The notes below the pieces were generated by a model. It was given only the letters and a program-made list of their open reading frames with translations. It made no database searches and was not told where the DNA came from. Of a DNA stretch of 64,000 nt, positions 10,001 to 23,798 are shown piece after piece. Made by a program: the position numbers and the translations under genes. Source of the DNA: a virus (taxonomy: Duplodnaviria > Caudoviricetes); the IMG/VR virus record IMGVR_UViG_3300025163_000238, positions 67,002 to 131,001 of that record; one strand, written 5' to 3'. Every line of letters starts with the position of its first letter. Position 1 is the first letter of the stretch.

Positions 10001-11348
10001 ACTTTTCGCACAGTTTCTCTGTGAGCTCCTCATGTACTTTCCTGAGCTTTTTGGTTAGCTTCATTGAAAGAGTCATCCGCTTGGATACAAAGTCAGCTGT
10101 CTTAGGGTCACTAATCAGGTTCAAGTTACGTACGCTTTCTAGATATTCTAACTCGGCAGCCCTTTTTATCTCTTGAAACGGGTCCTCTGATTCAGCTCGA
10201 GCTGGGGTCACAACTATGGGTTCTTGGGTGGGGGGTTTTGCTTCCCCACTAGGAGGCTTCGTCCCACCAACAGGTGTGAGACCTTGTGGTTGTAAGATAG
10301 TGAGTGTGTCACCACCTTGAGCGGGCGGTAAGTGCAGGAATGCCCTTGCTTCGTTAGGTGAAATAAGCCCAGACCTCGCAGCTAGTAGCAACTCTGATAT
10401 AGTATGAGCGGGGGGTATTTTGAATCTTATATTGATGCCGTAAGGGCGGAGAAAGTGATTGAGTTGATCTTGGATAGCTGTTACAATATGGGGTGTGTAG
10501 GTCGAATACAACAAAGGTCGCGCGGTTTGCCTGCCTAAACTATCTCCAGGATTGGAGAAACCAAACGCTGAACGTACCAGCCAATCCATTCGGTCTAAGA
10601 AGGAGGTTATGAGTTGAACGTCTAGTTGTTTTACTATGTCAATCCACTCGCCTCTACCAGCACCCCAAAGAATTGGCACTTTAGTTGACTGTTCTTGAAC
10701 TAAGTTGGTTAAGTCTGCCTGTAGTTTTTCTATTACCTCCTTTCCTACGTCCTCTTGCACTACGAAAACACCAATTGGTGGCCTTCCTTTCTTGTGCATC
10801 CGCTGGAGTGAGTAAACCAAATTAGTGATCTCGTAAGTCAGAGACTCAATGATAGATAAGGATCCAATAGTGTAGGTCCTTTTGACCCCAGCTATAACAA
10901 TAACCTCATCTGGTTTGAATTCAAATTTTTTACCATTGACCTCCTGAATGTATCCTAAGAGAACCCCATCTTTTCTAAACACAGGCGCAAACGTGCCCGC
11001 GTCTCTTGCGGTAAAACTTTTTAGCTGAGATCCAAGCGTGAATACAGGTAATATAACACCTTTGTTGACGACAAGCATGTCAACAACACATGCTTGGAGA
11101 ACTTCCTTAAATGTCTCACCTGTGGGACCTACTCCCTCAAAAAGAGCGGAGATTACTCCCTTCTTAAATGGATGAGACACTTTCACTTCAAAAGGGAGCC
11201 CAGCGATCGTCGTCGCAATTTGGTCAACACACCTTCTTATTGTGTTAGTGTCCCTATATATCTGTCTCAAGACCGAAGCTTGTAAAGAAGTTGTGTATGA
11301 CCACTGGATTGATGTGTCAAAAGACGTCACTCCCTTCAACTTATCCAT
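7023..11348 (-). CDS. Portal protein fused to a MuF/gp7 head-morphogenesis domain, tandem zincin metallopeptidase domains and C-terminal repeats
   Basis: HK97-like portal N-part (IRRCVDQIATTIAGLP, FKPDEVI, ISPNEARAFL); MuF Cys motif KWVGTGDENMCQDC...CRCVLIP; HELGH at 8439-8453 with downstream ESFAELF. Confidence 0.88.
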   Translation of the reverse strand: MDKLKGVTSFDTSIQWSYTTSLQASVLRQIYRDTNTIRRCVDQIATTIAGLPFEVKVSHPFKKGVISALFEGVGPTGETFKEVLQACVVDMLVVNKGVILPVFTLGSQLKSFTARDAGTFAPVFRKDGVLLGYIQEVNGKKFEFKPDEVIVIAGVKRTYTIGSLSIIESLTYEITNLVYSLQRMHKKGRPPIGVFVVQEDVGKEVIEKLQADLTNLVQEQSTKVPILWGAGRGEWIDIVKQLDVQLITSFLDRMDWLVRSAFGFSNPGDSLGRQTARPLLYSTYTPHIVTAIQDQLNHFLRPYGINIRFKIPPAHTISELLLAARSGLISPNEARAFLHLPPAQGGDTLTILQPQGLTPVGGTKPPSGEAKPPTQEPIVVTPARAESEDPFQEIKRAAELEYLESVRNLNLISDPKTADFVSKRMTLSMKLTKKLRKVHEELTEKLCEKFMLVRADVTPTLDPLDKWFYTQIQNALKDVTPDALQTGYYWVDRYWPSYDKDYVDAETVRSLKKINDYMTRQWTSKYQEVKKDAEKRDWDKVRDDLRTLLLSFLAAGAFVGYLTHLPLQAVTRFFTLKGKTIYYKWVGTGDENMCQDCREMHGKVFSQTELEFIGRWPGCGEPYKARGVRCNGKCRCVLIPVDIEETRFEVDWLQKVIPVRGLHLPKSELLAIGALDHVDKKIRDILLKEPRLREPAYFALFNKITTTAAETPYYNPLENTLYIPAKATHSTVRSAFVDAVVENLMFRNNFLDPYSPITAQLAAIMQKAREDVWETRLWKVFRKVGIELGKEPYIKLEEAWKFGNLAPFEKFTLPLDFPKEAYVDPMLFFKHMFRAVVFTPHREIPGKVAFEDFLASTLWTPSSYKKWVGKSLERLGRPWPAVTSVDAIMKRIPYVDEKIEPYIRALLETYPFLRVPAIWEGLNYIGFSKTTSTFNASYILGRGYEKFMESFNSSIVATPNLYQILHELGHHIFERHVMYNTLLGSTYGQVYLYGILYPFVERATLYAKSEKEVAKLIGFLEYLVEKEQKGQLQAALLASSSYIRETLIKPLQDRLPEITKNLSIPLRVYAISDPAESFAELFATFVTKPTILRYSSPELYDYFLSLMKAVAVKPLAKLKTEGMWKEFVEAMKKLKLNPDQIREAIEATLTVMASTEAQNWDTVGMMIRRIIAASRSDKGLLLELEKEGVIDVQGFSKQLNKMTEFSRLKALEEARKRPVTAAILKREREKYKRLFEFLADTKGKDFHNVVVEFVARLAPEEQCEPIVNKIFAYLDRQGWSKDAMYDVWRRLKNIQSGGKPRQDAYKWFEEEMKVKWTLKRPWEKKKKVIEAAKREKWFIKFQEAAKGKDFRKLVAKFVTKLTSEEQQVPVANKIFAYLNKHGWSEDAKFNVWRHLRGIVLGGKWREAAFEWFKKEVGIVWVAPKRRPEEQYLLKLLKKEGE
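7089..7625 (-). repeat. Two 75-aa repeats at the portal-fusion C-terminus
   Basis: KGKDF...EEQ..P..NKIFAYL...GWS.DA...VWR.L..I..GGK.R..A..WF..E at 7401-7625 and 7089-7313. Confidence 0.9.
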
Positions 11349-12074: not shown

Positions 12075-13046
12075 ATGGAACGTGTTGTCTTCTTCGTGAC
12101 GCGAAAGCCCAAGTTTGCTCCCAGTCCTTTCTACCTAGAAGGACGTAGACCAACCGACAAGTACTTATGGGATCCAATCATTGACCTACTTGAACGTAAA
12201 GTCACTATTTGCCCCAACAAAAAACCAGGTCACTGGGTGACACTACCAGGAGGACGCAAAGTTTGTATCCCAGAGTCGTACTGGCGGAAAAGAGCACTTA
12301 TTGCGGGCGTAACTGCAGGTGCAATTACTACTGCAGTTACAGCTGCTACACTCGCAGCGTCGGCACGGGTTCGAGCTTTTGTTCGTGGTCTTCACTTCAC
12401 TCCAGAAGGATCGATACAGCCATTATTGGGGCGACGTGGTCTAAACTTTATACTAAAAAGCCCCGATGTTGTAAGTCGATCTTTTCGTGCCGCTGCTTTA
12501 ACTGGGTTTAAGGTACAGCGCTTCGGATATTATGAATACAGAGGTGTGAAGGGTTTGATGATCGATGGGTCACTGAAGAACTTTCCAGGGTCTAAGCTTA
12601 TGTACGCCGCAACAAAAGATCCAGATGTGATATGGGCCGGACTTATTCATATTCCAAAGGCATCTCGTAGAGCATCACGTGATCTCTTTAAAGGCGTCTT
12701 TGACTTGGCACACGCAAGTGGTGCGTCGAAGATTCGATTTTTAGCAGGACTTGAAAATGGATCATCAATGTGGGCACGCTTAGGTGGTAAGTGGATCAAT
12801 GAAGAAGTTGAACGCAGATTCAAGCAGGAGGTTTTGGCGAGGCGTAGAGGTTTTTTCCCTAAAGACCTAGACGAGATTATCATTAAAGCGCGGACCCCAA
12901 AGGAGTTGGTGGAGAAGTTAGACGCGAGGATAGGTAAATCAGGAACGCGTAAGCTCTTGGAGTATATTGAATGGTGGGGTGAGTTGGATTTAAAGGACCC
13001 TCAAGTTAGATCCTTCTTATCAAAGCTAGCGAGGCAAAAGTCGTGA
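12075..13046 (+). CDS. Tagged protein: WVTL..GRKVCI motif, hydrophobic helix, GNAT-like domain
   Basis: PGHWVTLPGGRKVCIP, then ALIAGVTAGAITTAVTAATLAA, then SGASKIRFLAGLENGSSMWARLGGKW. Confidence 0.6.
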   Translation: MERVVFFVTRKPKFAPSPFYLEGRRPTDKYLWDPIIDLLERKVTICPNKKPGHWVTLPGGRKVCIPESYWRKRALIAGVTAGAITTAVTAATLAASARVRAFVRGLHFTPEGSIQPLLGRRGLNFILKSPDVVSRSFRAAALTGFKVQRFGYYEYRGVKGLMIDGSLKNFPGSKLMYAATKDPDVIWAGLIHIPKASRRASRDLFKGVFDLAHASGASKIRFLAGLENGSSMWARLGGKWINEEVERRFKQEVLARRRGFFPKDLDEIIIKARTPKELVEKLDARIGKSGTRKLLEYIEWWGELDLKDPQVRSFLSKLARQKS

Positions 13047-13924
13047 ACGTACCAGAAGCACTGAAGAAATATGCGAGACCTTTCTTGGTTTGGTGTGAGG
13101 GGTCCTATCCTTACTGTCTGCACATACACCTCGCGAGTGTTTTTCATGGTGACCTTCGTATGAGGTGGTGTGGGCGTGACCTTATTGGTGTAACTTTATT
13201 CCTCTACCGCCCCGGGTCTGTGAAGCATAGACCAAATGGAAGAGAGGGCTGGGATGACTTCCTTAAGATTGTGAAGTACCCACGAAGATACTTTAAGCTG
13301 GACTATACAACAGGAGAGATTATTGGTCAGAGGAGCCTTCAAGCGACGATGAAGCTTCCGGAGGCTAGTGCGTGGATCAATGTTCGGAAGTTTATATCAC
13401 CACCCGGTTATATCGGAGCGCGTTATCTTAAGGACAAGTGGGGCTACATGACGCGTGTGGACACTGGGTTAGTGGAGCACCTTACACGCAAGCTAGATAT
13501 GTTTGAGTTTTACTTTACTAAAGGGAAGGCCTTTCGTGGTAGATACATCCTTCGACCTTTTGGGCGTGGTTTCCATTTTTACACTGCATCTGCTGACAAA
13601 CCACACGTAGTGGGTACAAAGTATGAGAAGTTAAAAGAGGGTAAGGAGTTAGGGGGTTTCCTGTGGATCAGAGCAAAGGATCAGACACCATACATTCTTT
13701 CATTGCGTGCGGTTGAAAAGCGTTTCGTTGCCCCTTTTGGCTACTCAGGTTTACCTACGCAATTAAAGAAGTTGATTCCTTCAAGATTTCAATACTGGAA
13801 GTTAAGGAGCGAGAAGGATCGTATAAGGGTAAGAGACGAGTTAAGGGATGCGCTTAAAAGGAAAGGACTGATGAAGTATCTGGAATCCGGTGTGTGGTCT
13901 TACGTGAAAAGTTTAGAGGCTTGA
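13043..13924 (+). CDS. Protein with a LigD phosphoesterase-like motif
   Basis: HIHLASVFHGDLRM resembles the H..A..HxDxR motif of the LigD PE domain; later FTKGKAFRGRYIL resembles the PE C-terminal strands. Confidence 0.45.
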   Translation: MNVPEALKKYARPFLVWCEGSYPYCLHIHLASVFHGDLRMRWCGRDLIGVTLFLYRPGSVKHRPNGREGWDDFLKIVKYPRRYFKLDYTTGEIIGQRSLQATMKLPEASAWINVRKFISPPGYIGARYLKDKWGYMTRVDTGLVEHLTRKLDMFEFYFTKGKAFRGRYILRPFGRGFHFYTASADKPHVVGTKYEKLKEGKELGGFLWIRAKDQTPYILSLRAVEKRFVAPFGYSGLPTQLKKLIPSRFQYWKLRSEKDRIRVRDELRDALKRKGLMKYLESGVWSYVKSLEA

Positions 13925-13974
13925 CCTTTTTTGGTAGACCCTAGTTTAAATTTGGAACAAAGGAGGTGAGAGCT

Positions 13975-15060
13975 ATGTCGTTTTCGCGGTTTGAAAATGG
14001 GTTATTCCAAGCAACAGGTCAGTTTATTGCATCGGCTGACACTAAACCGTTTAAGGACTTCGCGAAGCAAGGTGAGTTAATAGTTGCGGGTTACGCTACA
14101 ACTTTCGATATTGGACTGGAAGGAGCTGTCATCGCGAGGGACGCGTTAAATGAAGAGGATTTGAAGCAACGTCCAACTTTGCTGTTCAACCACGACCAGA
14201 ATCGCCCCATCGGGCGTGTTGTAAGCTCTAAGGTTGATGATAAAGGCCTTTTCATAGTTGGTGTTATTGATAGTACTGAAAAGGAACTTCAACAGAAAAT
14301 CATGTCTGGTACGCTTTCTCGTTTCTCAATCAGGGGTCGGATAATGCGTTCACATGCTGAGTGGAGGAAGGACCTTCAGAAGAATATAGACGTAATCGAT
14401 GAGTTAAAGACTTTAGAGGTGTCTGTTGTTTCGGTACCCGCTGTTGCAGAGGCCGAAATTCAAAAATGGTATCTGCAACGTAATTTTAACGAAGGAGGTG
14501 ATAGCATGAGCGAACAAAAAAAGGACGAGGCAAAAGATATCACACGTGAGAATGGCGCTCCAGAAGAGGATGAATTTGTACTTGAAGATGACGGAACAAT
14601 CGAGTTATTGCTGGGACTAGATGAGCGAGTTAATGACTTGGTTGATAAAATTAGTACTTTTGAAGCGGCTGCTAATGACCTCAAGGCAGTCATGGAGAAG
14701 TTGAGCGCAATCGATAAGAAGATTGATGAGGTACTCAAAAAGTTGGAGAAGTATCCATATCCATATCCAGCTAAGAGAGACGCCGAAGAGTCAGCTGATC
14801 AATCTGGACAGGGAGAACAGGGAGAAGGAGAACAGGAGAGACAAGAGTCCACTAATCCACTTGAGGAGATTCAAAAGTCTATCCAACGCTTGGCTGACGA
14901 AGTAAAGTCGATAAAGGAATCTCCTACTATAAAGGGGGAGAAGGAGGCTGGAAAGGAAGACGAAATAAAGAGATTCATAGAATCAGAGGAGTACAAGAGC
15001 GCACCCCCAACTGACAAGCTGAGGATGTTATACGACTTTTTGCAAAAAGGAGGTGAGTAG
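13975..15060 (+). CDS. HK97-type prohead protease fused to scaffold
   Basis: VAGYATTF, LLFNHDQNRPIG (His), RFSIRG (Ser), LEVSVVSVPA; acidic coiled-coil C-half; SD AGGAGGTG favours ATG 13975. Confidence 0.92.
   Translation: MSFSRFENGLFQATGQFIASADTKPFKDFAKQGELIVAGYATTFDIGLEGAVIARDALNEEDLKQRPTLLFNHDQNRPIGRVVSSKVDDKGLFIVGVIDSTEKELQQKIMSGTLSRFSIRGRIMRSHAEWRKDLQKNIDVIDELKTLEVSVVSVPAVAEAEIQKWYLQRNFNEGGDSMSEQKKDEAKDITRENGAPEEDEFVLEDDGTIELLLGLDERVNDLVDKISTFEAAANDLKAVMEKLSAIDKKIDEVLKKLEKYPYPYPAKRDAEESADQSGQGEQGEGEQERQESTNPLEEIQKSIQRLADEVKSIKESPTIKGEKEAGKEDEIKRFIESEEYKSAPPTDKLRMLYDFLQKGGE
14506..15060 (+). CDS. Nested in-frame scaffolding protein
   Basis: Internal AAGGAGGTG SD 5 nt before an in-frame ATG (MSEQKK) at the end of the protease domain. 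Confidence 0.7.
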   Translation: MSEQKKDEAKDITRENGAPEEDEFVLEDDGTIELLLGLDERVNDLVDKISTFEAAANDLKAVMEKLSAIDKKIDEVLKKLEKYPYPYPAKRDAEESADQSGQGEQGEGEQERQESTNPLEEIQKSIQRLADEVKSIKESPTIKGEKEAGKEDEIKRFIESEEYKSAPPTDKLRMLYDFLQKGGE

Positions 15061-15061
15061 G

Positions 15062-15991
15062 ATGCTAGATTTAAAGCGCGAATTAGTTAGAAGCTTAACC
15101 GAAAGTGATATTGCTTCGATCATCCCCAAGGAAGTAGATAAGATCATCGAGTCCATGGTTGAGCATAAGAATCCTCTTCGTCAGAATCTTCCTCGTAAAC
15201 CAGGCTCTGGCGCAGGAGTCCCCGTTAACCGGAGAGACGGCGCTTCAACAGAGCCCAAGTTCTATGGCGACACCGACTCATTCGATGAAAGCACAGGCAG
15301 TTACTCTCAGATTGTGTTTACATACAAGACCATTGGATGTCAGGGGAAGGTCACTCGTAAGGCACGCGCAATCGGAGCTAACTACGCTGACTTACTGGCC
15401 AATGAAATGGAGGAACGGTCCCAAGAGTTCCGTGACAAAGAAGAATGGGGATACTTTTGGGGCGATGCAACAGCAAATCCAAAACAGTTTGATGGGTTAG
15501 ATAAGTTAACCCACAGTGACAATAGATTTGCAGTCGGTGGAAGTGGTGGTGGCAACTTAACACTTGAGTTAATGGACCAAGCAATTGACGCAGTTCGTGG
15601 GACACCTGACATGATCGTGTGCAGTAAAAGAACACGTAGGAGAATACGTGCCTTACTTCAAACTCAACAGAGGTTCGTAAATACCACAAAAGTGAAGGGT
15701 GGCTTCGAACTCATGAGCTATAATGATATTCCTATCTACGTGTCTAACCAAATTCCTGACACTCTTAAGGTTGATACGGACGGGAAGACCATCACTAGCT
15801 TAACCGCTGGTACATTGTCAGCTCTCTTTATTTTGGACACTGAGAAAGTGTATGTGTCCGAGTTAACCCCCCTTACTATTAAACCTCTCGCCAAAACTAG
15901 CTCGCAGTTTGACCTCTTTGACATCTACGCTGACGAGGTTTTAGTAGTTCGTAATCCATACGCGTGTGCTGAGATTGTAGGAATTGTATAA
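15062..15991 (+). CDS. Major capsid protein (HK97 fold)
   Basis: Follows protease/scaffold; IIPKEVDKII, FWGDA...KQFDGL, DMIVCS, YNDIPI, VLVVRNP; SD favours ATG 15062. Confidence 0.9.
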   Translation: MLDLKRELVRSLTESDIASIIPKEVDKIIESMVEHKNPLRQNLPRKPGSGAGVPVNRRDGASTEPKFYGDTDSFDESTGSYSQIVFTYKTIGCQGKVTRKARAIGANYADLLANEMEERSQEFRDKEEWGYFWGDATANPKQFDGLDKLTHSDNRFAVGGSGGGNLTLELMDQAIDAVRGTPDMIVCSKRTRRRIRALLQTQQRFVNTTKVKGGFELMSYNDIPIYVSNQIPDTLKVDTDGKTITSLTAGTLSALFILDTEKVYVSELTPLTIKPLAKTSSQFDLFDIYADEVLVVRNPYACAEIVGIV

Positions 15992-16002
15992 TAAATCGGA
16001 GA

Positions 16003-16022
16003 GGGGGACTGTAAGGTCCCCC
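16003..16022 (+). terminator. Stem-loop after the capsid gene (attenuator or mRNA stabiliser)
   Basis: GGGGGAC-TGTAAG-GTCCCCC; no clear U-tract. Confidence 0.5.
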
Positions 16023-16046
16023 CGTAATGTTAGTGGGAGGTTACTT

Positions 16047-16448
16047 ATGTATAAAATGAAGTACTGTGGGCCGTTTAGTGGTCCAGAATGGACTCTTGCT
16101 ACTTACCGTGAGGTCATAACTGTAAAAAACGGGTACTGCACAGTTAAGTACCCGGAAACAGTTCAAACGCTACAGCTGCAAGGCTTCAAATTAGTAGAGC
16201 AAGACGACACCCCAAAGCCACCACCTCGTCAGAAGGAATCTATTAAACCAGTAGCAACACCTCCGCCGAGACAAAAGCCGGAGCTGTCTCAAGCTGAAAC
16301 GAAGATCCTTGAATTGCTTAAAAAAGGTGCAAACCTGGGTGCCATAGCAGTTGCTATTAAGTGGAAAAAGTCAAAGATAGAGAATTGGATACGAACTCAC
16401 AGCAAGCTAGTAGCTGAGGTAGTAAATGCGCCAAGTTCTGCCAAATAG
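16047..16448 (+). CDS. Hypothetical protein with Pro-rich linker and C-terminal HTH-like domain
   Basis: Start moved to ATG 16047 (GGAGG SD); LSQAETKILELLKKGANLGAIAVAIKWKKSKIENW is HTH-like. Confidence 0.65.
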   Translation: MYKMKYCGPFSGPEWTLATYREVITVKNGYCTVKYPETVQTLQLQGFKLVEQDDTPKPPPRQKESIKPVATPPPRQKPELSQAETKILELLKKGANLGAIAVAIKWKKSKIENWIRTHSKLVAEVVNAPSSAK

Positions 16449-17244
16449 CCCAATTTCGTTAGCATTTGATTTTGTCTACGCGGGTGTAACGGTTAGCGAT
16501 GTTGAGGACCCTGTGGTTGAAGTGTACTCCTTCGCTCAGGCGCTGATGACCGCTGCTGCCTTAACATGGGGTGGGGCTCATTATGAAGCACGTGTTCAAG
16601 CACCACAGGAGTTGGGTGTTTACGTAGCAGTAGCTCACGGTAGGTATAATGGTGACTATATAACAGCCGCCTCACACGAAGCTCTTGAAGTAGTTTCATA
16701 CGGAGTAGAAGCGCACCACGCACTTATAACTCTCAATGAAGTTAAAGAGTACTTGGAGTTAACAGACTTTAGCGAAGACGCGTTTCTGCGACTTCTTACC
16801 GAGGCGTGCATTAGCAGTGTGTTGAACTACCTTCACATTACAATCGGGCCGCAAACAACAAAGGAGACCTTTCCTGTGTCTGACTGTGCTTCTTGGAGCT
16901 TAAACTATTACCCCGTCATTTCAGTGGAACATATTAGTGTAGATGGTGTTGAGTTAAGCAGTACAGATTACACATTAAACGCTAATACGGGTACGATTTG
17001 GTTCAATGAGTTAGTAAGTGGGGTGCTAGAAGTTGAGTATACATACGGGCTCACATCTATACCATATGATATGAAGCTCGCGTGTCTCAAGCTAGCAGCT
17101 GTGCTTTACAACCTACGAAACACAGAAGGCTATTCATCTCGAAGGTTGTTAAGCGTCGCTGAGACATATTTAGCGAGCAGTAAGGCTGATGTCTTTCACG
17201 AGATACGTTCTTTACTTGCTCCCTATAAACGGGTATCACGTTAG
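16426..17244 (+). CDS. Head-tail adaptor (gp6/gp15-like) with an N-terminal extra domain
   Basis: LITLNEVKEYL...D..L, VEYTYG...IPYDMKLACLKL, LLAPYKR. Confidence 0.85.
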   Translation: MRQVLPNSPISLAFDFVYAGVTVSDVEDPVVEVYSFAQALMTAAALTWGGAHYEARVQAPQELGVYVAVAHGRYNGDYITAASHEALEVVSYGVEAHHALITLNEVKEYLELTDFSEDAFLRLLTEACISSVLNYLHITIGPQTTKETFPVSDCASWSLNYYPVISVEHISVDGVELSSTDYTLNANTGTIWFNELVSGVLEVEYTYGLTSIPYDMKLACLKLAAVLYNLRNTEGYSSRRLLSVAETYLASSKADVFHEIRSLLAPYKRVSR

Positions 17245-17994
17245 AAGTTGGTTTTGGTCAACATATCCCCAATTGCGTTGATACATTCTCCACTTTTCTC
17301 TCGGCCACCGGAGCATGTCATGAACAATAAGTCTCTTGGGGTTGACAAAAGTGCTAATGTTTGGATGATATAGGTGGTGAAGTGTTATATCTGCGGCTTC
17401 GACTCGGTACCCAAATGCTTCTAGTTTTATCCAAAACGCGTTATCTTCACCATACTTACCGTAAAAATCTTTCTCTGGCATCCCGCCCACGTGGTTCATT
17501 ATAGTCTTAGTGATCCACATAGCACCGCCAGCTGCACCCATCTTCTCTGGCGTGGTGCTGCGTATGTAAGGGCCTCCGAGTGACTCTGATTTAAGAAATC
17601 GTTCTGTTGCCTCTTTTGACATGTACAAAATACGATTCCACGCTGCAGCTGGAGGACGCGTCTGGGCCAATATGCTTTGATAATTGGGCGGGTAAATGAG
17701 ATCAGCGTCGGTGAGTAATACGTGTTCAAACGTGGCTAGCTCTTTCACACCTACGTTAAAGGCCCAAGCTCTGTTAAAGGGGTGAAAAGTGAAAACCTTT
17801 AGATACCGAAAGGGCTTACGGATCCATTCACGGAAGGCGTTAATGTGGTCATGAATGTACGCTGTGGGGCCTGTCTCAACGATACATACCTCACATTGAG
17901 CTGAACGGGCTAGGGATTTCACACAGAAAGTCAGGAGTGGAAGTCGTAGTGGGTGGTGTTCATATGGTATAACAATAGAGATTGGGATTGACAC
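17236..17994 (-). CDS. Glycosyltransferase, GT-A fold (GT2/GT7-like)
   Basis: ISIVIPY, FNRAWAFNVG, TDAD (DxD), GGMPE..YGKYGED, HLYH; SD favours GTG 17994. Confidence 0.88.
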   Translation of the reverse strand: MSIPISIVIPYEHHPLRLPLLTFCVKSLARSAQCEVCIVETGPTAYIHDHINAFREWIRKPFRYLKVFTFHPFNRAWAFNVGVKELATFEHVLLTDADLIYPPNYQSILAQTRPPAAAWNRILYMSKEATERFLKSESLGGPYIRSTTPEKMGAAGGAMWITKTIMNHVGGMPEKDFYGKYGEDNAFWIKLEAFGYRVEAADITLHHLYHPNISTFVNPKRLIVHDMLRWPREKWRMYQRNWGYVDQNQLLT

Positions 17995-18022
17995 GCTTCC
18001 TCCTTTGATATAGACTACACCT

Positions 18023-18051
18023 ATGATACCAAATTCGTAAGACATTGACAA
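18023..18051 (-). promoter_or_regulatory. sigma70-like promoter for the glycosyltransferase
   Basis: TTGTCA-17-TATCAT on the minus strand. Confidence 0.65.
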
Positions 18052-18069
18052 GTTTAGAAGACAAGGTTA

Positions 18070-18477
18070 ATGGCGACCACACAAGCTTTATTAAGTGAAA
18101 CAGACTTCCCACAAGCAACAGTCGATGTCTTTTATAGTAACGAGGTGCTTGAGAGATGGATATTTGTAGGTGTACAGCAGCAAGGGATCGCGTCTGTTCT
18201 GTGGTGGATTACAAGAGGTTACCATCAGTTCACTGTACTTCTTCCCCTTGCGCAATTGTACCTCCTACATCATATCAGAACGCTGCGAATCAGAGTACCC
18301 GCCCGACAAATCTGGACAATAAAGCGTGAACGTGGTATTACTATTTACCCCACTCTACAGTTCTACACGAGTGTGGGTAAGGTTGCTGAATTATGTGGAT
18401 GTGGATTTAACTTCCAAGAGTTGAGGAACATAATAGTTCACCACTTGACCCCGGGGGTGAGCTATGGGAACTACTAA
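18070..18477 (+). CDS. Hypothetical protein
   Basis: 135-aa ORF overlapping the holin start. Confidence 0.6.
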   Translation: MATTQALLSETDFPQATVDVFYSNEVLERWIFVGVQQQGIASVLWWITRGYHQFTVLLPLAQLYLLHHIRTLRIRVPARQIWTIKRERGITIYPTLQFYTSVGKVAELCGCGFNFQELRNIIVHHLTPGVSYGNY

Positions 18478-18949
18478 TAGTGTTCAGAAAAGGAGGTTCC
18501 CATTGTACAGTGTACTTTACTACAGAGGCCAGCTCACTGCGGATTTCACATTTAAGTCAGTTGCTTCAGGGCTTTTATATGCTCTTCTATGGTTGTTTGG
18601 TGATGTCAACGATGCTGTCATTGCTTTGCTAGCATTAATGACCCTCGACGTCGCGTTAGGCTTATCAGTCGCTATTAAATATCATGACGTCTCTTCAGAC
18701 AAACTACGGCAAGGTGCGGTAAAGTTTTTATTGTATTTTGTGTTGATCATAGCTGCTAACTGCGTTGACAAGGTTGTAGCTCTTGTACCACTTATGAGCC
18801 AAATAGTACAGATCAGGAGTTTCACCATGATTTATCTAGCGGTATCTGAAGGGATTAGTGTCCTTGAGAACCTTTCAGCACTTGGCGTGGCTGTGCCTAA
18901 AGTGATGCTCAAAAGACTCCGTCGGTTCAAGCAAAGCATGGAGAGGTAA
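18464..18949 (+). CDS. Phage holin (holin-4/TcdE-like)
   Basis: Several TM segments; SSDKLRQGAVK and EGISVLENLSALGVAVP signature. Confidence 0.88.
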   Translation: MGTTNSVQKRRFPLYSVLYYRGQLTADFTFKSVASGLLYALLWLFGDVNDAVIALLALMTLDVALGLSVAIKYHDVSSDKLRQGAVKFLLYFVLIIAANCVDKVVALVPLMSQIVQIRSFTMIYLAVSEGISVLENLSALGVAVPKVMLKRLRRFKQSMER

Positions 18950-20197
18950 ATGGCACGAATCATAATGTGCCCTGATGACAAGCCAGGGACGTGGATTACA
19001 TTAAAAACAGGGAGACGTGTCTGTATTCACTACATCAAGAAAAATGGTGGATGGGAAAAGATTTCGGCTGTCATACCAGCAGCGAAAGTTTTGGGTGGCG
19101 TTACAGTAGCAGCTATAGCTGCTGCGATCCTGCGGAGAAAGCCACCATTGATTAAAGACATTCGAAAAGTTGCTGTGATTCACGGAAGAACTGAGTTTGC
19201 ACTTAATAAGTGGTACCAGACTATAATGAGCGCGTGGATGGGGATGAAATCAATTCCTCCTGTAGTTTCTAGTGCAAAGCCACCAAAGTTACTAAAATCC
19301 GCGGCTTTAATATACACACCACACCCCGGGGCTATGGCAGTGAAGGCTGAGAAGATTATTGGCCATAGAGAAATGATGAAGCTGATTAGCGATAAGTTTA
19401 AGTTCTCACGGTTATTTCACAAGCATCCGGAACGTCATTTAGATACCTATTTAGCGTCTAACTTCAAGAATGTGGATGAGATGAGGAATTACTTCGCTTC
19501 ATCAGGTAAGTCTTTTATACTGAAACCAAGATTTGGGTCACTTGGGACTCTTAAAGACTTCCCTAACGGTGAGTGGTCAAACAAAGCAATCGAAAAGTAT
19601 ATCAAGTCTTACGGTGCTGATGACGTGGTTGTACAGGAACTGGTACCTATTGCAAACGAGTTTCGGGTGCATGTAGTAAACGGTAAGGTTTACGCTGTAA
19701 TGCACAGGTGGGGTCCTCCTGGAGGACTTGGGAAGGTATGGCGTGAAAACATTCCGTTTGGGAATGTTGTGTTCCCAGTATGGCATAAAGATGACATCGT
19801 AAAATTCACAGAGAAGGCAATTCAACCTTGGGGGAAGAAACTTCATGCTGGGCTGGATGTCATTCAACTCCCAGATGGGAGCTATAAAATCTTGGAAGCA
19901 AATCCTCTTCCTGCTTCTTTCTTACACCCCTATGTATCCAGAAAGTTCCACAGAGCGGTAACTGGTGTCTGGACCGCGGACATACAAGCACTAGCTGCAG
20001 TAGGGGGCGTGGTTGGCGCCTGGGCTACAATTTCAGGAACAAGGGAACTTGTGAACAAGAGGAAGAGGGATTATCCTGAAATAGTGACTTTCAAAGGGAA
20101 TAAAGGTTTTTGGGTAACATTAGAAACAGGCAAGAAAATCTTTATTCCTCTAAAGTACGTAAGCGATTACATCAGAGAGAGGTGGTTCACCTGGTGA
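18950..20197 (+). CDS. RimK-like ATP-grasp ligase flanked by two tag motifs and two hydrophobic helices
   Basis: DKFK, FILKPRFGSLG, VVQELV, EFRVHVVNGKV, GLDVI, ILEAN. Confidence 0.82.
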   Translation: MARIIMCPDDKPGTWITLKTGRRVCIHYIKKNGGWEKISAVIPAAKVLGGVTVAAIAAAILRRKPPLIKDIRKVAVIHGRTEFALNKWYQTIMSAWMGMKSIPPVVSSAKPPKLLKSAALIYTPHPGAMAVKAEKIIGHREMMKLISDKFKFSRLFHKHPERHLDTYLASNFKNVDEMRNYFASSGKSFILKPRFGSLGTLKDFPNGEWSNKAIEKYIKSYGADDVVVQELVPIANEFRVHVVNGKVYAVMHRWGPPGGLGKVWRENIPFGNVVFPVWHKDDIVKFTEKAIQPWGKKLHAGLDVIQLPDGSYKILEANPLPASFLHPYVSRKFHRAVTGVWTADIQALAAVGGVVGAWATISGTRELVNKRKRDYPEIVTFKGNKGFWVTLETGKKIFIPLKYVSDYIRERWFTW

Positions 20198-20274
20198 AGC
20201 GCTTTAAGTAGCCTTTTTTCAAGTCACGTACATACGCTTTACTAAGTCGTAAGGTCTGCCCTAACAGTACCTCA

Positions 20275-20679
20275 CTAGGAGCCTATTACCATTACTCTAA
20301 CACCTGTAAGGTTACTAAGATTGCAACCAGCAGCTACTTCTCGTGCTTTGCCCGCACGAACTGTTATTATGTCCCCATTAGCTGCGGTCGATGTAACTTG
20401 TACGTCACCACTATCCACAGACGCACCGCCATCATGAGTGCCTACCTTCTCACCGCCTTGGGGATATAAAACTTTAATTTTATTATTAGTATAGTCAAAT
20501 TCGAATATGTAACCGCCCTTACTAGGTGCATCGACAAAATCAAAATGCTGTAATCCCAAAGTTGAAGGTTTTAGCTCTTCCCCACCAGGATGATAAAAAA
20601 AACCGAAATCAACATCGAAAAATAACACTCTTTTGTTCCCAAAAACGGTGTACTTTTTATTTCTTATAGTGAGTGCCAC
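20275..20679 (-). CDS. Putative virion structural/decoration protein
   Basis: MALT start, beta-rich, Y.PGGE and EVAAG.NLS...VRVMVIG pattern recalled from small phage head proteins. Confidence 0.5.
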   Translation of the reverse strand: MALTIRNKKYTVFGNKRVLFFDVDFGFFYHPGGEELKPSTLGLQHFDFVDAPSKGGYIFEFDYTNNKIKVLYPQGGEKVGTHDGGASVDSGDVQVTSTAANGDIITVRAGKAREVAAGCNLSNLTGVRVMVIGS

Positions 20680-20715
20680 TTTTGCCCCCTGTTAGCCTAG
20701 TAATAATTTACCCCA

Positions 20716-22902
20716 TTACACTTTACCCTTATAAGTCACGTGTAGCTTCCCATCTGTCGATCCAACCCTTATCGCTTTGAAATTAGATATTTCAGTAGGA
20801 CTTGTTATCGTAATAGACTGACCAGAGTCTACATAGTGCCCCTCAGTAGAAGTAGGAGTTGACCCATCAACCCAGTACCGTATCGCACCCGCGTCTGGAT
20901 CCAAAGTACAGTAAGCTACCTTACAGTTCTTAATCTTATCAGGTGAGAACCCCACTGCTGTGGAGCCTACTGTGATGACTTCTTTGTCGTAAGCGACGTA
21001 TTCTTCACTTACGGGTGTCACAAGCAGTGCACCATTTCTTGCTTTCAAACGCCGCACTATCCCACACTTGTCCGCATCTTCGGCTATCAAACTTGGTCTG
21101 TAGTTCTTGTCTAATAAAGCGGTTTCGCTCACTACTTTTACTACTTTCGAATCCCAACTCAGGTCGTCGCTCTTATAGAATTTAACTGTAGTTCCATCCA
21201 TCCATACAAAGGCATATCCTGACTTCGGTCTATTTGTCTTTGCTCCGGAAATCGTGGGGTGGAGTGCCCAAATAGGAGATGGATATTGTTGTGTAATTGC
21301 AGCATCGGTAAGACCTTCCTGTGTCTGCCACCCCGACGGAGTTCTTTTTCGATACTGGACATTATAGTAGTCGGGGTTCGATCCCCAACCTTTTCCGGTC
21401 CAAATTACATGAACATTGTCTTGAGAATCTATAGCGATGGTTTGGTCGAACTGGTTGTAATTCACATCTGTTACCGCTTCTTGAGTTTGCCATCCCGATG
21501 AAGTTCTTTTTCTGTACTGGGTATTCGCATTTCCAGTGTTTGTCCCCCAACCCCAACCTTCCCAAACTATATGAATGTTATCTTGGGAATCTACTGCAAT
21601 TGAGGGGTAATATTGGTCATCGTCTTTATCTGTTACCGCTTCTTGTGCCTGCCAACCGGCACTGGTTCTTTTTCTGTATTGAATGTTGTAATAATCGGGG
21701 TTCGATCCCCAACCCCCACCTTCCCAAACTATATGAACATTGTCTTGGGAGTCTATAGCGATGGCGGGGTCGTATTGTTTATCGTCTTTATCCGTTAACG
21801 CTTCTTGTGCCTGCCAACCGGCACTGGTTCTTTTTCTGTATTGGATATTGTAGTAATTGGGGTTCGATCCCCAGCCCCCACCGTACCAAACTACATGAAC
21901 ATTGCCCTGGGAGTCTATAGCGATGGCAGGGTTATATTGAGTGCTGTCCTTGTCTGTTACCGCTTCTTGTGCCTGCCAACCAGAACTGGTCCTCTTTCTA
22001 TATTGAATATTGTTGTAGTTAGGGTTCGATCCCCAGCCTTTTCCGGTCCAAACTACATGAACATTGTCTTGGGAATCAACCGCAACCGAGGGGTAGTATT
22101 GGTGCCCTGACCCTGAGCTCACTTGTTCTTCAGTCCAAGTTTCACCATCAGGGGAGTAGGAAATATAGATCTGTTCGTACGTTCCATCTGAGCGACTATA
22201 AACACACCACAAAGTACCATCACTCGTTCTAGCCAGATTTCGTTGCGGTGTATAGGCTGTACTGTACTCAGACGCGCCTGTCTTTATCGTGTAAGATGGG
22301 TCAATGCTTATGGGGTAAGCAGCATTCTCAAGAAAAGCTTTATCGATCTTGATCGTTAGAGTTCCGTTTTTTAGTTCTACTTCCGCCTCAGTTGCTTGAC
22401 CAAGTCTGTCTTTTGCGATCACTGGGTTGAGATAAAGGATGTCTTCTTTTAAGACTTTTTTTCGGTTTCTTAACGCAAGGTGAGGTAACTCAACTTCACG
22501 GTAGAAGGCGTAGCCGCTACCCCGCCTTTCGCACTTTAGCCCCCTTATTTCGACACTGAAGGTCAGGATGTTATTTGGAGGCCTCTTCTTTAGAATGACT
22601 TCTTGCTCGAAAGACCATTCTTCAACGGGGTGTAATTGATTTCTCTCACAGTACCTTCTGTATCCCAAATCGTAGAGGTGTACTTCCTTCGAACTTTTGA
22701 TGAGTTTAATTTTCCCCTCTTCCTCTTTGAGCGCGAACGTACCTTCATCATCATCTAAAAACTTGAAGGAAGCACTTACACCCCGCCTCCTCACTTCCAC
22801 TTTTGGTTCAAGGCGGTTCTTCTCACCCGTGATAACTTCCCACTTTTCTCGTAGGTTGTTATTTTGAGTGTGTCTCCACGCTGAAGGACTTAGTTTCTCC
22901 AT
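20716..22902 (-). CDS. BNR-like beta-propeller repeat virion/adhesin protein
   Basis: YPISIDP domain boundary; five 54-aa repeats PAIAIDSQDNVHVVW; C-terminal IRYWVDGSTPT domain. Confidence 0.75.
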   Translation of the reverse strand: MEKLSPSAWRHTQNNNLREKWEVITGEKNRLEPKVEVRRRGVSASFKFLDDDEGTFALKEEEGKIKLIKSSKEVHLYDLGYRRYCERNQLHPVEEWSFEQEVILKKRPPNNILTFSVEIRGLKCERRGSGYAFYREVELPHLALRNRKKVLKEDILYLNPVIAKDRLGQATEAEVELKNGTLTIKIDKAFLENAAYPISIDPSYTIKTGASEYSTAYTPQRNLARTSDGTLWCVYSRSDGTYEQIYISYSPDGETWTEEQVSSGSGHQYYPSVAVDSQDNVHVVWTGKGWGSNPNYNNIQYRKRTSSGWQAQEAVTDKDSTQYNPAIAIDSQGNVHVVWYGGGWGSNPNYYNIQYRKRTSAGWQAQEALTDKDDKQYDPAIAIDSQDNVHIVWEGGGWGSNPDYYNIQYRKRTSAGWQAQEAVTDKDDDQYYPSIAVDSQDNIHIVWEGWGWGTNTGNANTQYRKRTSSGWQTQEAVTDVNYNQFDQTIAIDSQDNVHVIWTGKGWGSNPDYYNVQYRKRTPSGWQTQEGLTDAAITQQYPSPIWALHPTISGAKTNRPKSGYAFVWMDGTTVKFYKSDDLSWDSKVVKVVSETALLDKNYRPSLIAEDADKCGIVRRLKARNGALLVTPVSEEYVAYDKEVITVGSTAVGFSPDKIKNCKVAYCTLDPDAGAIRYWVDGSTPTSTEGHYVDSGQSITITSPTEISNFKAIRVGSTDGKLHVTYKGKV
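21300..22110 (-). repeat. Five tandem 162-bp coding repeats
   Basis: WQAQEAVTD...QY.PAIAIDSQDNVHVVW.G.GWGSNP.Y.NIQYRKRTS.G, near-identical at DNA level. Confidence 0.9.
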
Positions 22903-22904
22903 TC

Positions 22905-23426
22905 TTACCCCTTTATTTGTTCGTAAAGTTTGGTGCCTTTCTTAGCAAGCCCGACCTTGTCGGCACATGTCTCAAACACGATAAAACCAGTACGAGGATC
23001 AACAAGGTCTACCAAGATAAGCGCGGCCTTGTCTTTACTTTCGACAGGATTAAGCCTTACGTTCAAATAGGTCATATAAGGTTTTGGCTTCTTCATCCCT
23101 TTAGTTATATCCACAGGCTCCTCTTTTTTCATGAGTTGGATCAACTTTTTAAAAACAGTAGTGGTTCTAGGCTTAGCGGATTCACGCACTAAATATTGAG
23201 CGAAATTGGACTGTGCAAAGGCAACGTCACCCAACACCTGATGTGCAGCCGCTATTTTATCAACCGAGCCTTCGAACCGTAGTGCGGACAAAATAGCTTC
23301 TTTCAGTGAGTTGAAGCTTTTGGGGTGAGTTGCAACAGATACCAAACCAAGTCCACGAGTACCTAAGAAGACTGTAACACGTGGATTAGCCTTTTCAACA
23401 GCTAATACGACACCTTCTTTTTTCAT
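22905..23426 (-). CDS. Hypothetical protein
   Basis: 173-aa ORF coupled to its neighbours. Confidence 0.7.
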   Translation of the reverse strand: MKKEGVVLAVEKANPRVTVFLGTRGLGLVSVATHPKSFNSLKEAILSALRFEGSVDKIAAAHQVLGDVAFAQSNFAQYLVRESAKPRTTTVFKKLIQLMKKEEPVDITKGMKKPKPYMTYLNVRLNPVESKDKAALILVDLVDPRTGFIVFETCADKVGLAKKGTKLYEQIKG

Positions 23427-23746
23427 TCTTCCCTCTTGTACCTAGTTACTAAAGACACTCCTGCACCCGCGATTGCAATAATAACACCCGTCTTACTGAG
23501 TTTACTACCAAGCGTGCGATACCCAAACTTTGCAAAAGCAGTTCTACACCGTAACGTAAGTGATGCACCACTCCTAACGCCAACGGACGCTATAGCCGAT
23601 CCAACACCACTGACCCACCTGATAGCCCTTTTACTATTAGTCCATTTCTGATATGCTTTTATGTTCTTCTCTTCTATGAAGACACGTCTGCCTGTCCTTA
23701 ATGTGAACCAGGCGCCTCTCTTCCCCTTATAAGTAGTAATCCTCAT
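23423..23746 (-). CDS. Small tagged protein with two Gly/Ala-rich hydrophobic segments
   Basis: MRITTYKGKRGAWFTLRTGRRVFIE; start moved to ATG 23746 (GAGGGTG SD). Confidence 0.7.
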   Translation of the reverse strand: MRITTYKGKRGAWFTLRTGRRVFIEEKNIKAYQKWTNSKRAIRWVSGVGSAIASVGVRSGASLTLRCRTAFAKFGYRTLGSKLSKTGVIIAIAGAGVSLVTRYKREE

Positions 23747-23769
23747 GCTCTCACCCTCAGATCTTCTCC

Positions 23770-23798
23770 TTTCTAGCATCTGTTTAAAGAGTAGTCAA
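23770..23798 (-). promoter_or_regulatory. sigma70-like promoter
   Basis: TTGACT-17-TAGAAA with TG extension. Confidence 0.5.

What the first reader, a model, noticed from the sequence alone, without database searches (positions are those of the whole stretch)
12207..23746. Shared short tag on unrelated, scattered proteins: candidate virion cargo-sorting and delivery system
Seen: the motif G-x-W-[VIF]-T-L-x-[TG]-G-[RK]-[RK]-[VI]-[CF]-I occurs four times. The copies are 12207-12272 (ICPNKKPGHWVTLPGGRKVCIP, GNAT-like protein), 18965-19030 (MCPDDKPGTWITLKTGRRVCIH) and 20081-20149 (IVTFKGNKGFWVTLETGKKIFIP) at the two ends of the ATP-grasp protein, and 23672-23746 (MRITTYKGKRGAWFTLRTGRRVFIE). Two subtypes are visible: CP..KPG...VC with paired cysteines, and T[FY]KG.[KR]G...FI. 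Every copy lies next to a Gly/Ala/Val-rich hydrophobic helix. Weaker versions occur at 1746-1811 (FITKRVKGRLRHIPI) and at the start of 2653 (FIPLRNKQGKLFWV). The carriers are otherwise dissimilar, lie on both strands and are interleaved with head genes. Inference: a modular beta-hairpin address that loads interchangeable enzymes into the capsid, analogous to the T4 capsid-targeting sequence, with the helix aiding ejection or membrane insertion.
Basis: partly seen in the sequence, partly recalled or inferred. Interest (0 to 1): 0.9.

Follow-up and report, generated by a model that had tools for sequence, protein, structure and literature searches.

The report
Portable hairpin tag on phage proteins
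Three unrelated proteins of this uncultured 131-kb phage carry the same roughly 30-residue beta-hairpin peptide, a widespread but apparently unnamed module that in other phages sits in front of enzymes fused to head proteins, so it probably marks proteins carried in the capsid, although its binding partner and function are untested.

Summary
The four strong copies are real and sit at the stated coordinates. A fifth lies outside the window, on a small protein in the replication gene block. The two "weaker versions" are not supported. The motif is not private to this virus. A profile of the copies found 40 protein clusters among 1.84 billion, about 33 of them convincing. A DNA pattern found 22 of 25 viral and 25 of 31 genome stretches above a pattern-only control. 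In all I counted 112 copies in 89 distinct proteins: 43 N-terminal, 16 C-terminal, 53 internal. Carriers include proteins with portal or DUF2213 domains and ADP-ribosyltransferase, metallopeptidase-like, transglycosylase, lipase and kinase-type modules. This is the repertoire of head-packaged "polyvalent" proteins. No Pfam, NCBIfam, PHROGs or PDB entry covers the tag in the proteins I tested. The papers I read do not mention it; their supplements were closed. Best reading, confidence 0.5: a portable docking handle for virion cargo. The adjacent Gly/Ala-rich helix is specific to this lineage (22 of 112 copies). No partner was identified. This scan had already noted the same kind of tag in at least seven other genomes.

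The parts
12075..13046 (+). Carrier 1: 323-aa protein of unknown family, built as tag, hydrophobic helix, then a roughly 225-aa C-terminal region
   Evidence: Translation. No Pfam, PHROGs or NCBIfam family. Close homologues P0013, P0052 and L002 keep the tag.
12195..12296 (+). Tag copy 1, Cys subtype (core 12228-12269, CP..KPGxWVTL..GRKVC)
   Evidence: Profile score 51.8 bits. AlphaFold2 model of residues 37-76 with 36 aligned copies: mean pLDDT 72.7, blocks 11-30 at 83-86, strands 15-20 and 26-30, helix 31-37.
12294..12359 (+). Gly/Ala/Thr/Val-rich hydrophobic segment after tag 1 (residues 74-95)
   Evidence: 19-residue Kyte-Doolittle mean up to 1.66.
18950..20197 (+). Carrier 2: 415-aa ATP-grasp-like protein, built as tag, helix, ATP-grasp, helix, tag; it starts at the stop of the holin gene
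   Evidence: R2K_3 and R2K_2 at E 3.2e-4, below the cut-off. rimK_fam E 1.3e-9 and MptN E 1e-10, both far below their cut-offs. Holin PF05105 at 18464-18949. The 39%-identical relative P0056 has a TF-type N-terminal tag instead of the Cys type, keeps both helices and lacks the C-terminal tag.
18953..19054 (+). Tag copy 2, Cys subtype, at the N-terminus of the ATP-grasp protein (core 18986-19027)
   Evidence: 46.8 bits.
19058..19135 (+). Hydrophobic segment after tag 2 (residues 37-62)
   Evidence: Kyte-Doolittle mean up to 1.87.
19982..20038 (+). Hydrophobic segment before tag 3 (residues 345-363)
   Evidence: Kyte-Doolittle mean 1.42.
20072..20173 (+). Tag copy 3, T[FY]KG subtype, at the C-terminus of the ATP-grasp protein (core 20105-20146), followed by a short helix
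   Evidence: 54.5 bits. A weak, sub-threshold DUF2442 hit lies over it (E 0.15).
23423..23779 (-). Carrier 3: small protein (118 aa from the first ATG; probably starts at MRITTYKG) consisting of the tag plus Gly/Ala-rich helices
   Evidence: Homologues P0007-P0011, P0017 and P0018. Tandem paralogues in L030 and L047. In 11 distinct family members the tag core (0.82) and the helix after it (0.95) are the best conserved parts, against 0.69-0.72 elsewhere.
23648..23749 (-). Tag copy 4, T[FY]KG subtype (core 23675-23716)
   Evidence: 59.1 bits.
23444..23503 (-). C-terminal hydrophobic segment of carrier 3 (residues 93-112)
   Evidence: Kyte-Doolittle mean 1.63.
7023..11348 (-). Context: 1441-aa portal-MuF protein with an HELGH site read in its C-terminal part; it carries no tag copy
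   Evidence: Phage_portal E 3.3e-6 and Phage_Mu_F E 1.7e-4, both below their cut-offs. HELGH read. No profile hit in this ORF.
13966..15991 (+). Context: prohead protease (13966-15060) and major capsid protein (15053-15991), downstream of carrier 1 on the same strand
   Evidence: Peptidase_S78 E 2.4e-15. SU10_MCP E 8.9e-13 and Phage_capsid E 2.6e-8.

Best explanation
The copies are instances of a small, portable, autonomous module of about 30 residues. Its layout is: a short strand, a G-[KR]-x-G turn, the strand x-W-[VI]-T-[LT], an x-x-G turn, the strand [RK]-[RK]-[VI]-[FC]-I, and often a short helix.

It is shared by otherwise unrelated proteins of uncultured tailed viruses. It stands at N-termini, at C-termini and at the junctions between enzyme modules of large 'polyvalent' head proteins.

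Most likely it is a docking handle. It would bind a conserved component of the assembling head and so recruit or hold different proteins inside the capsid, from which they leave with the DNA. In this virus lineage the handle is coupled to a Gly/Ala-rich hydrophobic helix. That helix may let the cargo associate with a membrane or with itself after delivery.

Shown here: the motif is real, conserved, modular and exchangeable; it is linked to head genes and has very diverse partners. Inferred: packaging into the virion, the identity of the receptor, ejection, and the role of the helix.
For: Reality and conservation: 5 copies at 46.8-59.1 bits against 6.7 for the next best segment, and 0 matches in 200 shuffles. 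The tag and the helix after it are the best conserved parts of the carrier-3 family.

Breadth: 40 clusters at E<=1e-3 in 1.84 billion representatives, about 33 of them convincing. 22 of 25 viral and 25 of 31 genome pattern matches score 20 bits or more; peptides carrying only the pattern residues average 9.6 bits, 95th percentile 20.7. In all, 112 copies in 89 distinct proteins.

Modularity: 43 N-terminal, 16 C-terminal, 53 internal. There are up to 4 copies per protein, each ahead of a module (P0015, P0025, P0031, P0039). The ATP-grasp relative P0056 swaps the Cys subtype for the TF subtype and lacks the C-terminal copy.

Partners: ADPrib_exo_Tox (P0015, P0048), ATLF-like peptidase (P0036, P0043; below cut-off), QueC, thymidylate kinase and a PI3/PI4-kinase-like domain. 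Also SLT, Lipase_3/Mbeg1 and DUF6973, and zeta-toxin and radical-SAM precomputed labels. HExxH occurs in 15 of 89 carriers against 10 of 652 other ORFs of at least 100 aa.

Link to head genes:
- tag in a portal-domain protein: L004 (portal E 3.2e-29, tag 23.8 bits);
- tag in DUF2213 proteins: L020, L029, L046;
- L025: tag plus metalloprotease plus head-morphogenesis phrog_758, with MuF (E 1e-18) directly downstream;
- the complete 70-kb virus G001 has four consecutive tagged genes between terminase/HNH and a scaffold gene;
- in G009 the tag lies 1 kb after a MuF-like match;
- in this window carrier 1 lies between portal-MuF and the protease/capsid genes.

Literature: such portal- or MuF-linked enzyme repertoires are predicted to be packaged and injected (passages of PMC5512222, and of PMC9503650).

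Fold: a hairpin plus short helix, pLDDT 83-86 over the core.
Against: There is no direct evidence that any carrier is in a virion. No partner was identified.

The fifth copy is on an 86-aa protein among Mre11/Rad50-like, sigma-factor and NrdD genes, not head genes. Carrier 2 follows a holin, and carrier 3 lies among fibre-like genes.

Tag-only proteins exist. They include P0028 (54 aa) and P0020 (95 aa, two copies), and three 30-aa ORFs in bacterial MAG contigs without obvious phage neighbours. A pure address with no cargo is hard to explain.

Tags also occur in proteins that already contain a portal domain, where an address seems redundant. That would make sense only if modules are cut apart before loading.

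The portal-MuF protein of this virus has no tag. Cultured-phage records gave no match to the queries I tried, so nothing can be tied to a proteome.

The sample of carriers was found with profiles and patterns and is not a census.
Confidence: 0.5

Rival explanations
1. The hairpin is a general protein-protein or self-association module, for example a dimerising or beta-sheet-extending element, with no specific role in capsid loading. In this virus it would assemble small membrane-associated complexes (ATP-grasp ligase, 118-aa helix protein, 323-aa protein) that act on the host envelope, in lysis or in glycosylation during infection.
For: Hydrophobic residues alternate on both faces of both strands (alignment), so the hairpin should need a partner surface. 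Several carriers have two or more copies: P0020, the ATP-grasp protein, P0025, P0031 and P0039. Tag-only proteins and a tagged protein in the replication block exist. The paired-Cys subtype could bridge two chains. Carriers 2 and 3 sit beside a holin, glycosyltransferases and fibre-like genes.
Against: It does not explain why the partners are so consistently the portal/MuF-linked effector repertoire, nor why tagged genes cluster in head modules. The hydrophobic helices are only moderately hydrophobic (1.4-1.9). With two of them, the basic tags and the ATP-dependent domain would lie on opposite sides of a membrane.
Confidence: 0.2
2. The hairpin is a recognition or cutting signal for the zincin-like metallopeptidases of polyvalent proteins, or for the prohead protease. 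It would mark where multi-module head proteins are cut into units.
For: The tag stands at module junctions in multi-module proteins. HExxH is enriched in carriers, 15 of 89 against 10 of 652. 'Tag then HExxH' is a recurrent solo architecture: L008, L022, L025, L012 and L016. Iyer et al. propose processing of polyvalent proteins by their metallopeptidase domains (PMC5512222, passages). This virus has an HELGH site in its portal-MuF protein.
Against: In many solo proteins the tag starts within the first 5 residues (P0048, L022, L008 genes), so nothing would be removed upstream. 16 of 112 tags end the protein. Tag-only proteins would be substrates with no product. No cleavage-site residue is conserved outside the hairpin in the alignment.
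Confidence: 0.15
3. The hairpin is a small nucleic-acid-binding element that tethers proteins to the packaged genome.
For: Most copies are basic, with a mean net charge of +2.5 over the 18-residue core, and all have an invariant Trp. The fifth copy lies among DNA-metabolism genes.
Against: The charge is not conserved. It ranges from -4 to +6, and 15 of 110 cores are net negative. The invariant positions are Gly, Trp and Thr plus hydrophobic positions, not basic ones. No DNA-binding fold or family matched.
Confidence: 0.05

Closest known systems
Phage-type polyvalent proteins and portal- or MuF-fused effectors (Iyer, Burroughs, Anand, de Souza, Aravind 2017, PMC5512222; abstract and passages read)
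   Same: The partner repertoire is the same: ADP-ribosyltransferase, zincin-like peptidase, kinases, zeta-toxin-like, portal and MuF. So is the position in head-gene blocks. The tag separates the modules of such proteins (P0015, P0031, P0036).
   Different: The window's carriers are single-module proteins without portal or MuF. The passages I retrieved from the main text do not mention this hairpin. None of the Pfam LPD families matched any carrier tested. The paper's supplementary alignments of LPD1-40 could not be seen and might contain it.
Capsid targeting sequence of phage T4 internal proteins and Alt (recalled; only search listings and abstracts seen)
   Same: The idea is the same: a short shared peptide on unrelated proteins that loads them into the prohead for injection.
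   Different: As I recall it, the T4 signal is about 10 residues, strictly N-terminal, and removed by the prohead protease. This tag is about 30 residues, predicted to fold as a hairpin, and occurs N-terminally, C-terminally and internally (43, 16 and 53 of 112). No cleavage or loading has been shown.
Cargo-loading peptides of encapsulins (recalled; no call)
   Same: Short portable peptides at either end of unrelated enzymes that dock to the inner face of an HK97-fold shell. The capsid protein here also matches the HK97-type Phage_capsid family (PF05065).
   Different: I know of no sequence likeness, and no binding test gave an answer here. Encapsulin peptides are extended and unstructured rather than a hairpin (recalled).
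MuF polymorphic toxins of temperate phages (Jamet et al. 2017, PMC5576092, term search only; PMC11699363, passages)
   Same: Variable toxin-like enzymes encoded in head-morphogenesis regions. [quoted passage not shown]
   Different: There the proposed address is the roughly 300-aa MuF domain on the same chain. Here a 30-residue hairpin is carried by proteins without MuF. The six terms I searched in PMC5576092 (linker, motif, hairpin and others) gave no hit.

Membership tests
The unnamed hairpin-tag family itself (profile built here, A3) | G-x-W-[VI]-T ... G-[RK]-[RK]-[VI]-[FC]-I core scoring well above pattern-only controls | tested here: met
   The window copies score 46.8-59.1 bits. Peptides carrying only the pattern residues average 9.6 bits, maximum 29.8.
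Phage-type polyvalent proteins (Iyer et al. 2017) | Two or more effector domains in one polypeptide | tested here: not met
   Carriers 1-3 have at most one recognisable domain. Relatives that share the tag do meet it (P0015, P0031, P0036).
Phage-type polyvalent proteins (Iyer et al. 2017) | Encoded with, or fused to, portal/MuF head genes | tested here: met
   Carrier 1 lies between portal-MuF and protease/capsid. Tag-bearing relatives contain portal or DUF2213 domains or neighbour MuF.
T4 capsid targeting sequence | Strictly N-terminal position on the cargo (feature recalled) | tested here: not met
   43 N-terminal, 16 C-terminal and 53 internal of 112 copies. In the window, one copy is C-terminal.
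T4 capsid targeting sequence | Removal by the prohead protease and presence of the cargo in virions | not testable with these tools
   Needs proteomics of particles. No cultured relative was found.
Encapsulin-type cargo-loading peptide | Binding to the inner surface of the HK97-fold shell protein | not tested
No tag-capsid fold was run.
Pfam DUF2442 (PF10387) | Score above the gathering cut-off (23.9 bits) | tested here: not met
   12.7 bits, E 0.15, over residues 379-404 of carrier 2 only.
RimK / R2K ATP-grasp ligases (carrier 2) | Profile match above the curated cut-off | tested here: inconclusive
   R2K_3 21.3 bits against 26.3 and R2K_2 21.0 against 26.2. rimK_fam 37.9 against 143.4 and MptN 41.2 against 350. 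It is ATP-grasp-like, but the subfamily is unassigned.
   0 families in Pfam at E<=1, PHROGs at E<=0.1 and NCBIfam at E<=1.

The most novel reading that the evidence does not exclude
The hairpin is a general, sequence-defined capsid-loading signal of tailed viruses. It would be the phage counterpart of the encapsulin cargo peptide, docking any protein that carries it to a conserved head component. In this lineage the signal would be paired with a Gly/Ala-rich helix that inserts the delivered enzymes, including an ATP-grasp ligase tagged at both ends, into the host membrane. The paired-cysteine subtype would be a locked or metal-bridged version.
Probability: 0.25. Interest if true: 0.85.

Novelty: new variant of a known kind. 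Interest (0 to 1): 0.6.

Why it matters
How tailed phages choose which proteins to enclose and inject is understood for only a few model phages. A short, recognisable tag shared by many unrelated enzymes would help in three ways. Virion cargo and early-acting anti-host effectors could be predicted from sequence in uncultured phages. There would be a direct experiment to run: tag-reporter fusions, point mutants of the invariant Gly/Trp/Thr, and pull-downs. It could also serve as a handle for loading foreign proteins into phage particles.

The local features are new details that could point to the mechanism. These are the tag-plus-helix unit, a ligase tagged at both ends, the covarying cysteine pair, and tag-only mini-proteins. 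The finding is not unique to this window: the scan noted the same kind of tag in at least seven other genomes.

Tried and rejected
Self-association of the tag. Complex prediction was run with two copies of the 46-residue C-terminal tag and the 33-row alignment. The verdict was 'no answer' (score 0.02, mark 0.42), so it counts neither for nor against.

Full-length model of carrier 2 with 4 aligned sequences. Mean pLDDT was 32.9, which is unusable. It only repeats strand-strand(-helix) at both tags.

Fold search of the 40-residue tag model against the PDB. No match at E<=0.001; the best was E 1.7, and chemokine hairpins appeared only as superficial likenesses.

Sequence profiles against the PDB. 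The best hits were E 0.26 and E 0.087, all chance-level 10-16-residue hairpins.

Cultured phages by tblastn. No match for the 37-aa tag at E<=10 or for a tag-peptidase protein. For L024 there were 6 weak hits, to a part of the protein away from the tags.

DUF2442: sub-threshold.

DNA-binding reading: rejected as the general role because the charge is not conserved.

Conserved gene pair for the 30-aa mini-ORFs: their upstream genes are not similar.

A single portal family as receptor: PF04860 matched in only 1 of 5 near-complete tag-bearing viruses, and below the cut-off. Divergent portals may simply be missed.

Chance or one-family explanation: rejected.

Papers. PMC5512222: abstract and found passages only. 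PMC5576092: term search with no hits. PMC11699363 and PMC9503650: found passages. The other items were seen as listings and abstracts only. Supplements were closed, so the LPD1-40 alignments of PMC5512222 were not seen. The statement that the tag is undescribed rests on these searches alone.

Full report
**The observation**

The window belongs to a 131,001-bp single-contig virus record. All four quoted peptides translate exactly as written.

- A strict regular expression finds these four and nothing else in the six frames of the window.
- It finds five in the whole record and none in 200 shuffles.
- A profile of 33 copies, run against all 2,811 six-frame segments of the genome, gives the five copies 46.8-59.1 bits. 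The next best segment scores 6.7 bits.

The protein at 1629 gives no match. The one at 2653 scores -2.8 bits, within the range of its own shuffles.

The fifth copy (genome 5856-5957, minus strand, outside the window) ends an 86-aa protein. That protein has no hydrophobic segment. It lies among Metallophos (Mre11-like), SMC_N/AAA_23 (Rad50-like), Sigma70_r4 and NRDD genes, a DNA-metabolism block and not a head block.

**The carriers and their setting**

- Carrier 1 (12075-13046) has no family in Pfam, PHROGs or NCBIfam, so "GNAT-like" is unsupported. It lies between a 1441-aa portal-MuF protein on the other strand and, on its own strand, a 293-aa ORF (13043-13924) followed by the S78 prohead protease and the capsid gene.
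- Carrier 2 (18950-20197) is ATP-grasp-like, but every match is below the curated cut-offs. It starts where a holin gene ends.
- Carrier 3 (23423-23779) is little more than the tag plus Gly/Ala-rich helices. It lies between a DUF2341 fibre-like gene and a repeat protein.

Moderately hydrophobic Gly/Ala/Val-rich segments (Kyte-Doolittle 1.4-1.9) accompany all four window copies. In carrier 3 the only segment above the threshold lies about 57 residues from the tag.

**The tag elsewhere**

A profile of seven copies, searched against 1.84 billion cluster representatives, gave 40 proteins at E<=1e-3. Looking at the matched stretches:

- about 33 carry the same module;
- P0016 and P0027 are a different repeat;
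- P0022, P0034 and P0050 are doubtful;
- P0024 and P0035 carry a shortened variant.

A degenerate DNA pattern of mine found 25 stretches in viral contigs and 31 matches in 29 stretches of genome contigs. Peptides carrying only the pattern residues average 9.6 bits with a 95th percentile of 20.7. Against that control, 22 of 25 viral and 25 of 31 genome matches score 20 bits or more. The low scorers (L009/L018, L033, L038, L040, L043, L048) look like chance. L006/L039 are borderline at 19.1 bits.

Over all fetched loci and proteins the profile recognises 112 copies in 89 distinct proteins of 46-1697 residues: 43 N-terminal, 16 C-terminal and 53 internal. Only 22 lie within 60 residues of a hydrophobic segment, and most of these are relatives of this window's proteins. 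The helix is therefore a feature of this lineage, not of the module.

**Modularity**

Multi-module proteins carry a copy ahead of each module: P0015 three, P0031 four, P0039 three, P0025 two or more.

The only distant relative of carrier 2 (P0056, 39% identical) has a T[FY]KG-type tag where the window protein has the Cys type. It keeps both helices and has no C-terminal tag. So the subtypes are interchangeable and copies come and go.

In the carrier-3 family (11 distinct sequences) the tag core and the helix after it are the most conserved parts: 0.82 and 0.95, against 0.69-0.72 elsewhere.

The two cysteines covary. 9 of 9 copies with Cys in the last strand have one upstream, against 1 of 101 without. 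These 9 come from about six independent families. This points to a contact, a disulfide or a shared metal, but I could not measure it.

**Partners and neighbourhoods**

Same-chain partners:

- ADP-ribosyltransferase (P0015, P0048);
- ATLF-like peptidase (P0036, P0043; sub-threshold);
- QueC-like domain, thymidylate kinase and a PI3/PI4-kinase-like domain;
- portal (L004; L006 with a borderline tag), DUF2213 (L020, L029, L046) and a DRAT-like domain (L017);
- SLT transglycosylase, Lipase_3/Mbeg1 and DUF6973;
- zeta-toxin and radical-SAM labels precomputed by the database.

HExxH occurs in 15 of 89 carriers against 10 of 652 other ORFs of at least 100 aa.

Neighbourhoods:

- The complete 70-kb virus G001 has four consecutive tagged genes between terminase/HNH and a scaffold gene.
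- L025 is tag plus metalloprotease plus head-morphogenesis phrog_758, with a MuF match (E 1e-18) directly downstream.
- In G009 the tag lies 1 kb after a MuF-like match and 5 kb after a portal-like match, both below cut-off.

This is the repertoire and setting of the phage-type polyvalent proteins, which Iyer et al. predict to be packaged and injected (PMC5512222, passages; PMC9503650).

**What the tag looks like**

With 36 aligned copies AlphaFold2 gives a hairpin (strands 15-20 and 26-30 of the 40-residue query) followed by a short helix. Mean pLDDT is 72.7, and 83-86 over the core.

The invariant or nearly invariant positions are two glycines, Trp, Thr and an Ile, with hydrophobic residues on both faces of both strands. 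So the hairpin probably needs another surface to pack on.

Net charge of the core varies from -4 to +6. That argues against nucleic-acid binding as the conserved role.

**Known or not**

No Pfam, NCBIfam or PHROGs family covers the tag in any carrier I scanned. No PDB sequence or fold matched. The retrieved passages of the polyvalent-protein paper and the term search in the MuF-toxin paper do not mention it. Supplements were closed, so it may be hidden among LPD1-40.

Earlier notes of this scan describe the same kind of hairpin tag in at least seven other genomes, with the partner still unknown. I reached the polyvalent-protein link before reading them. They are not independent evidence.

**Interpretation**

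The reading that explains most facts is a portable docking handle for proteins carried in the head. I give it 0.5.

It is weakened by several facts: the tagged protein in the replication block, tag-only proteins of 30-95 aa, tags in portal-domain proteins, and the complete lack of virion data.

The rivals are:

- a general association module, which in this virus would build membrane-linked complexes (0.2);
- a processing or recognition signal for the peptidase domains (0.15);
- nucleic-acid binding (0.05).

**Host**

A Sigma70_r4 gene and a Phage_holin_4_1 holin point to a bacterial host. Near-identical genes nevertheless sit in MAGs labelled "uncultured archaeon" and Candidatus Shapirobacteria.

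Noticed in passing
L031:5920-6012, L037:6946-7038, L045:1453-1545: Three 30-residue ORFs that are nothing but the tag (MP..K..D.DG..GHWVTL.DGR..FI..), in Hydrogenedentota and other bacterial MAG contigs without obvious phage neighbours. The upstream genes of L031 and L045 are not similar to each other.
   Followed up: partly
genome 5832-6092 (-), outside the window (L001:5832-6092): The fifth tag copy ends an 86-aa protein among Mre11-like, Rad50-like, sigma-factor and anaerobic ribonucleotide reductase genes, so not all tagged genes are in the structural block.
   Followed up: yes
window 7023-11348 (-): The 1441-aa portal-MuF protein has an HELGH site and two C-terminal repeats but no tag copy. 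I did not test this.
   Followed up: no
L058:7725-11337 (G001:C1:15724-19336): A complete 70-kb virus has four consecutive genes that each start with the tag. They lie between terminase/HNH and a 629-aa gene with no Pfam hit (probably the portal), followed by a scaffold gene.
   Followed up: yes
L030, L051 and L047 (genome contigs): Genes nearly identical to this virus's carriers sit in MAGs labelled 'uncultured archaeon' and Candidatus Shapirobacteria, while the virus itself has a Sigma70_r4 gene and a bacterial-type holin. This is probably a binning artefact or a hint to the host. L047 and L030 hold two or three tandem paralogues of carrier 3.
   Followed up: partly
G007:C1:35823-35918 (+) and 114513-114608 (-): A 150-kb viral record classed as having inverted terminal repeats holds mirror-image copies of a tag-plus-helix gene of the P0021 type. 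This could be a real large inverted duplication or an assembly artefact.
   Followed up: no
window 3586-4722 (-), 17236-18051 (-), 27223-29115 (+): An NAD-dependent epimerase/dehydratase and two family-2 glycosyltransferases lie within the structural gene block, next to the tagged genes.
   Followed up: no
L035:855-1634 (-), L049:877-1740 (+), L050, L056: Several proteins (SLT transglycosylase, DUF6973) end exactly at or within a few residues of the tag (...FIKD stop), so a C-terminal tag is a recurrent arrangement.
   Followed up: partly
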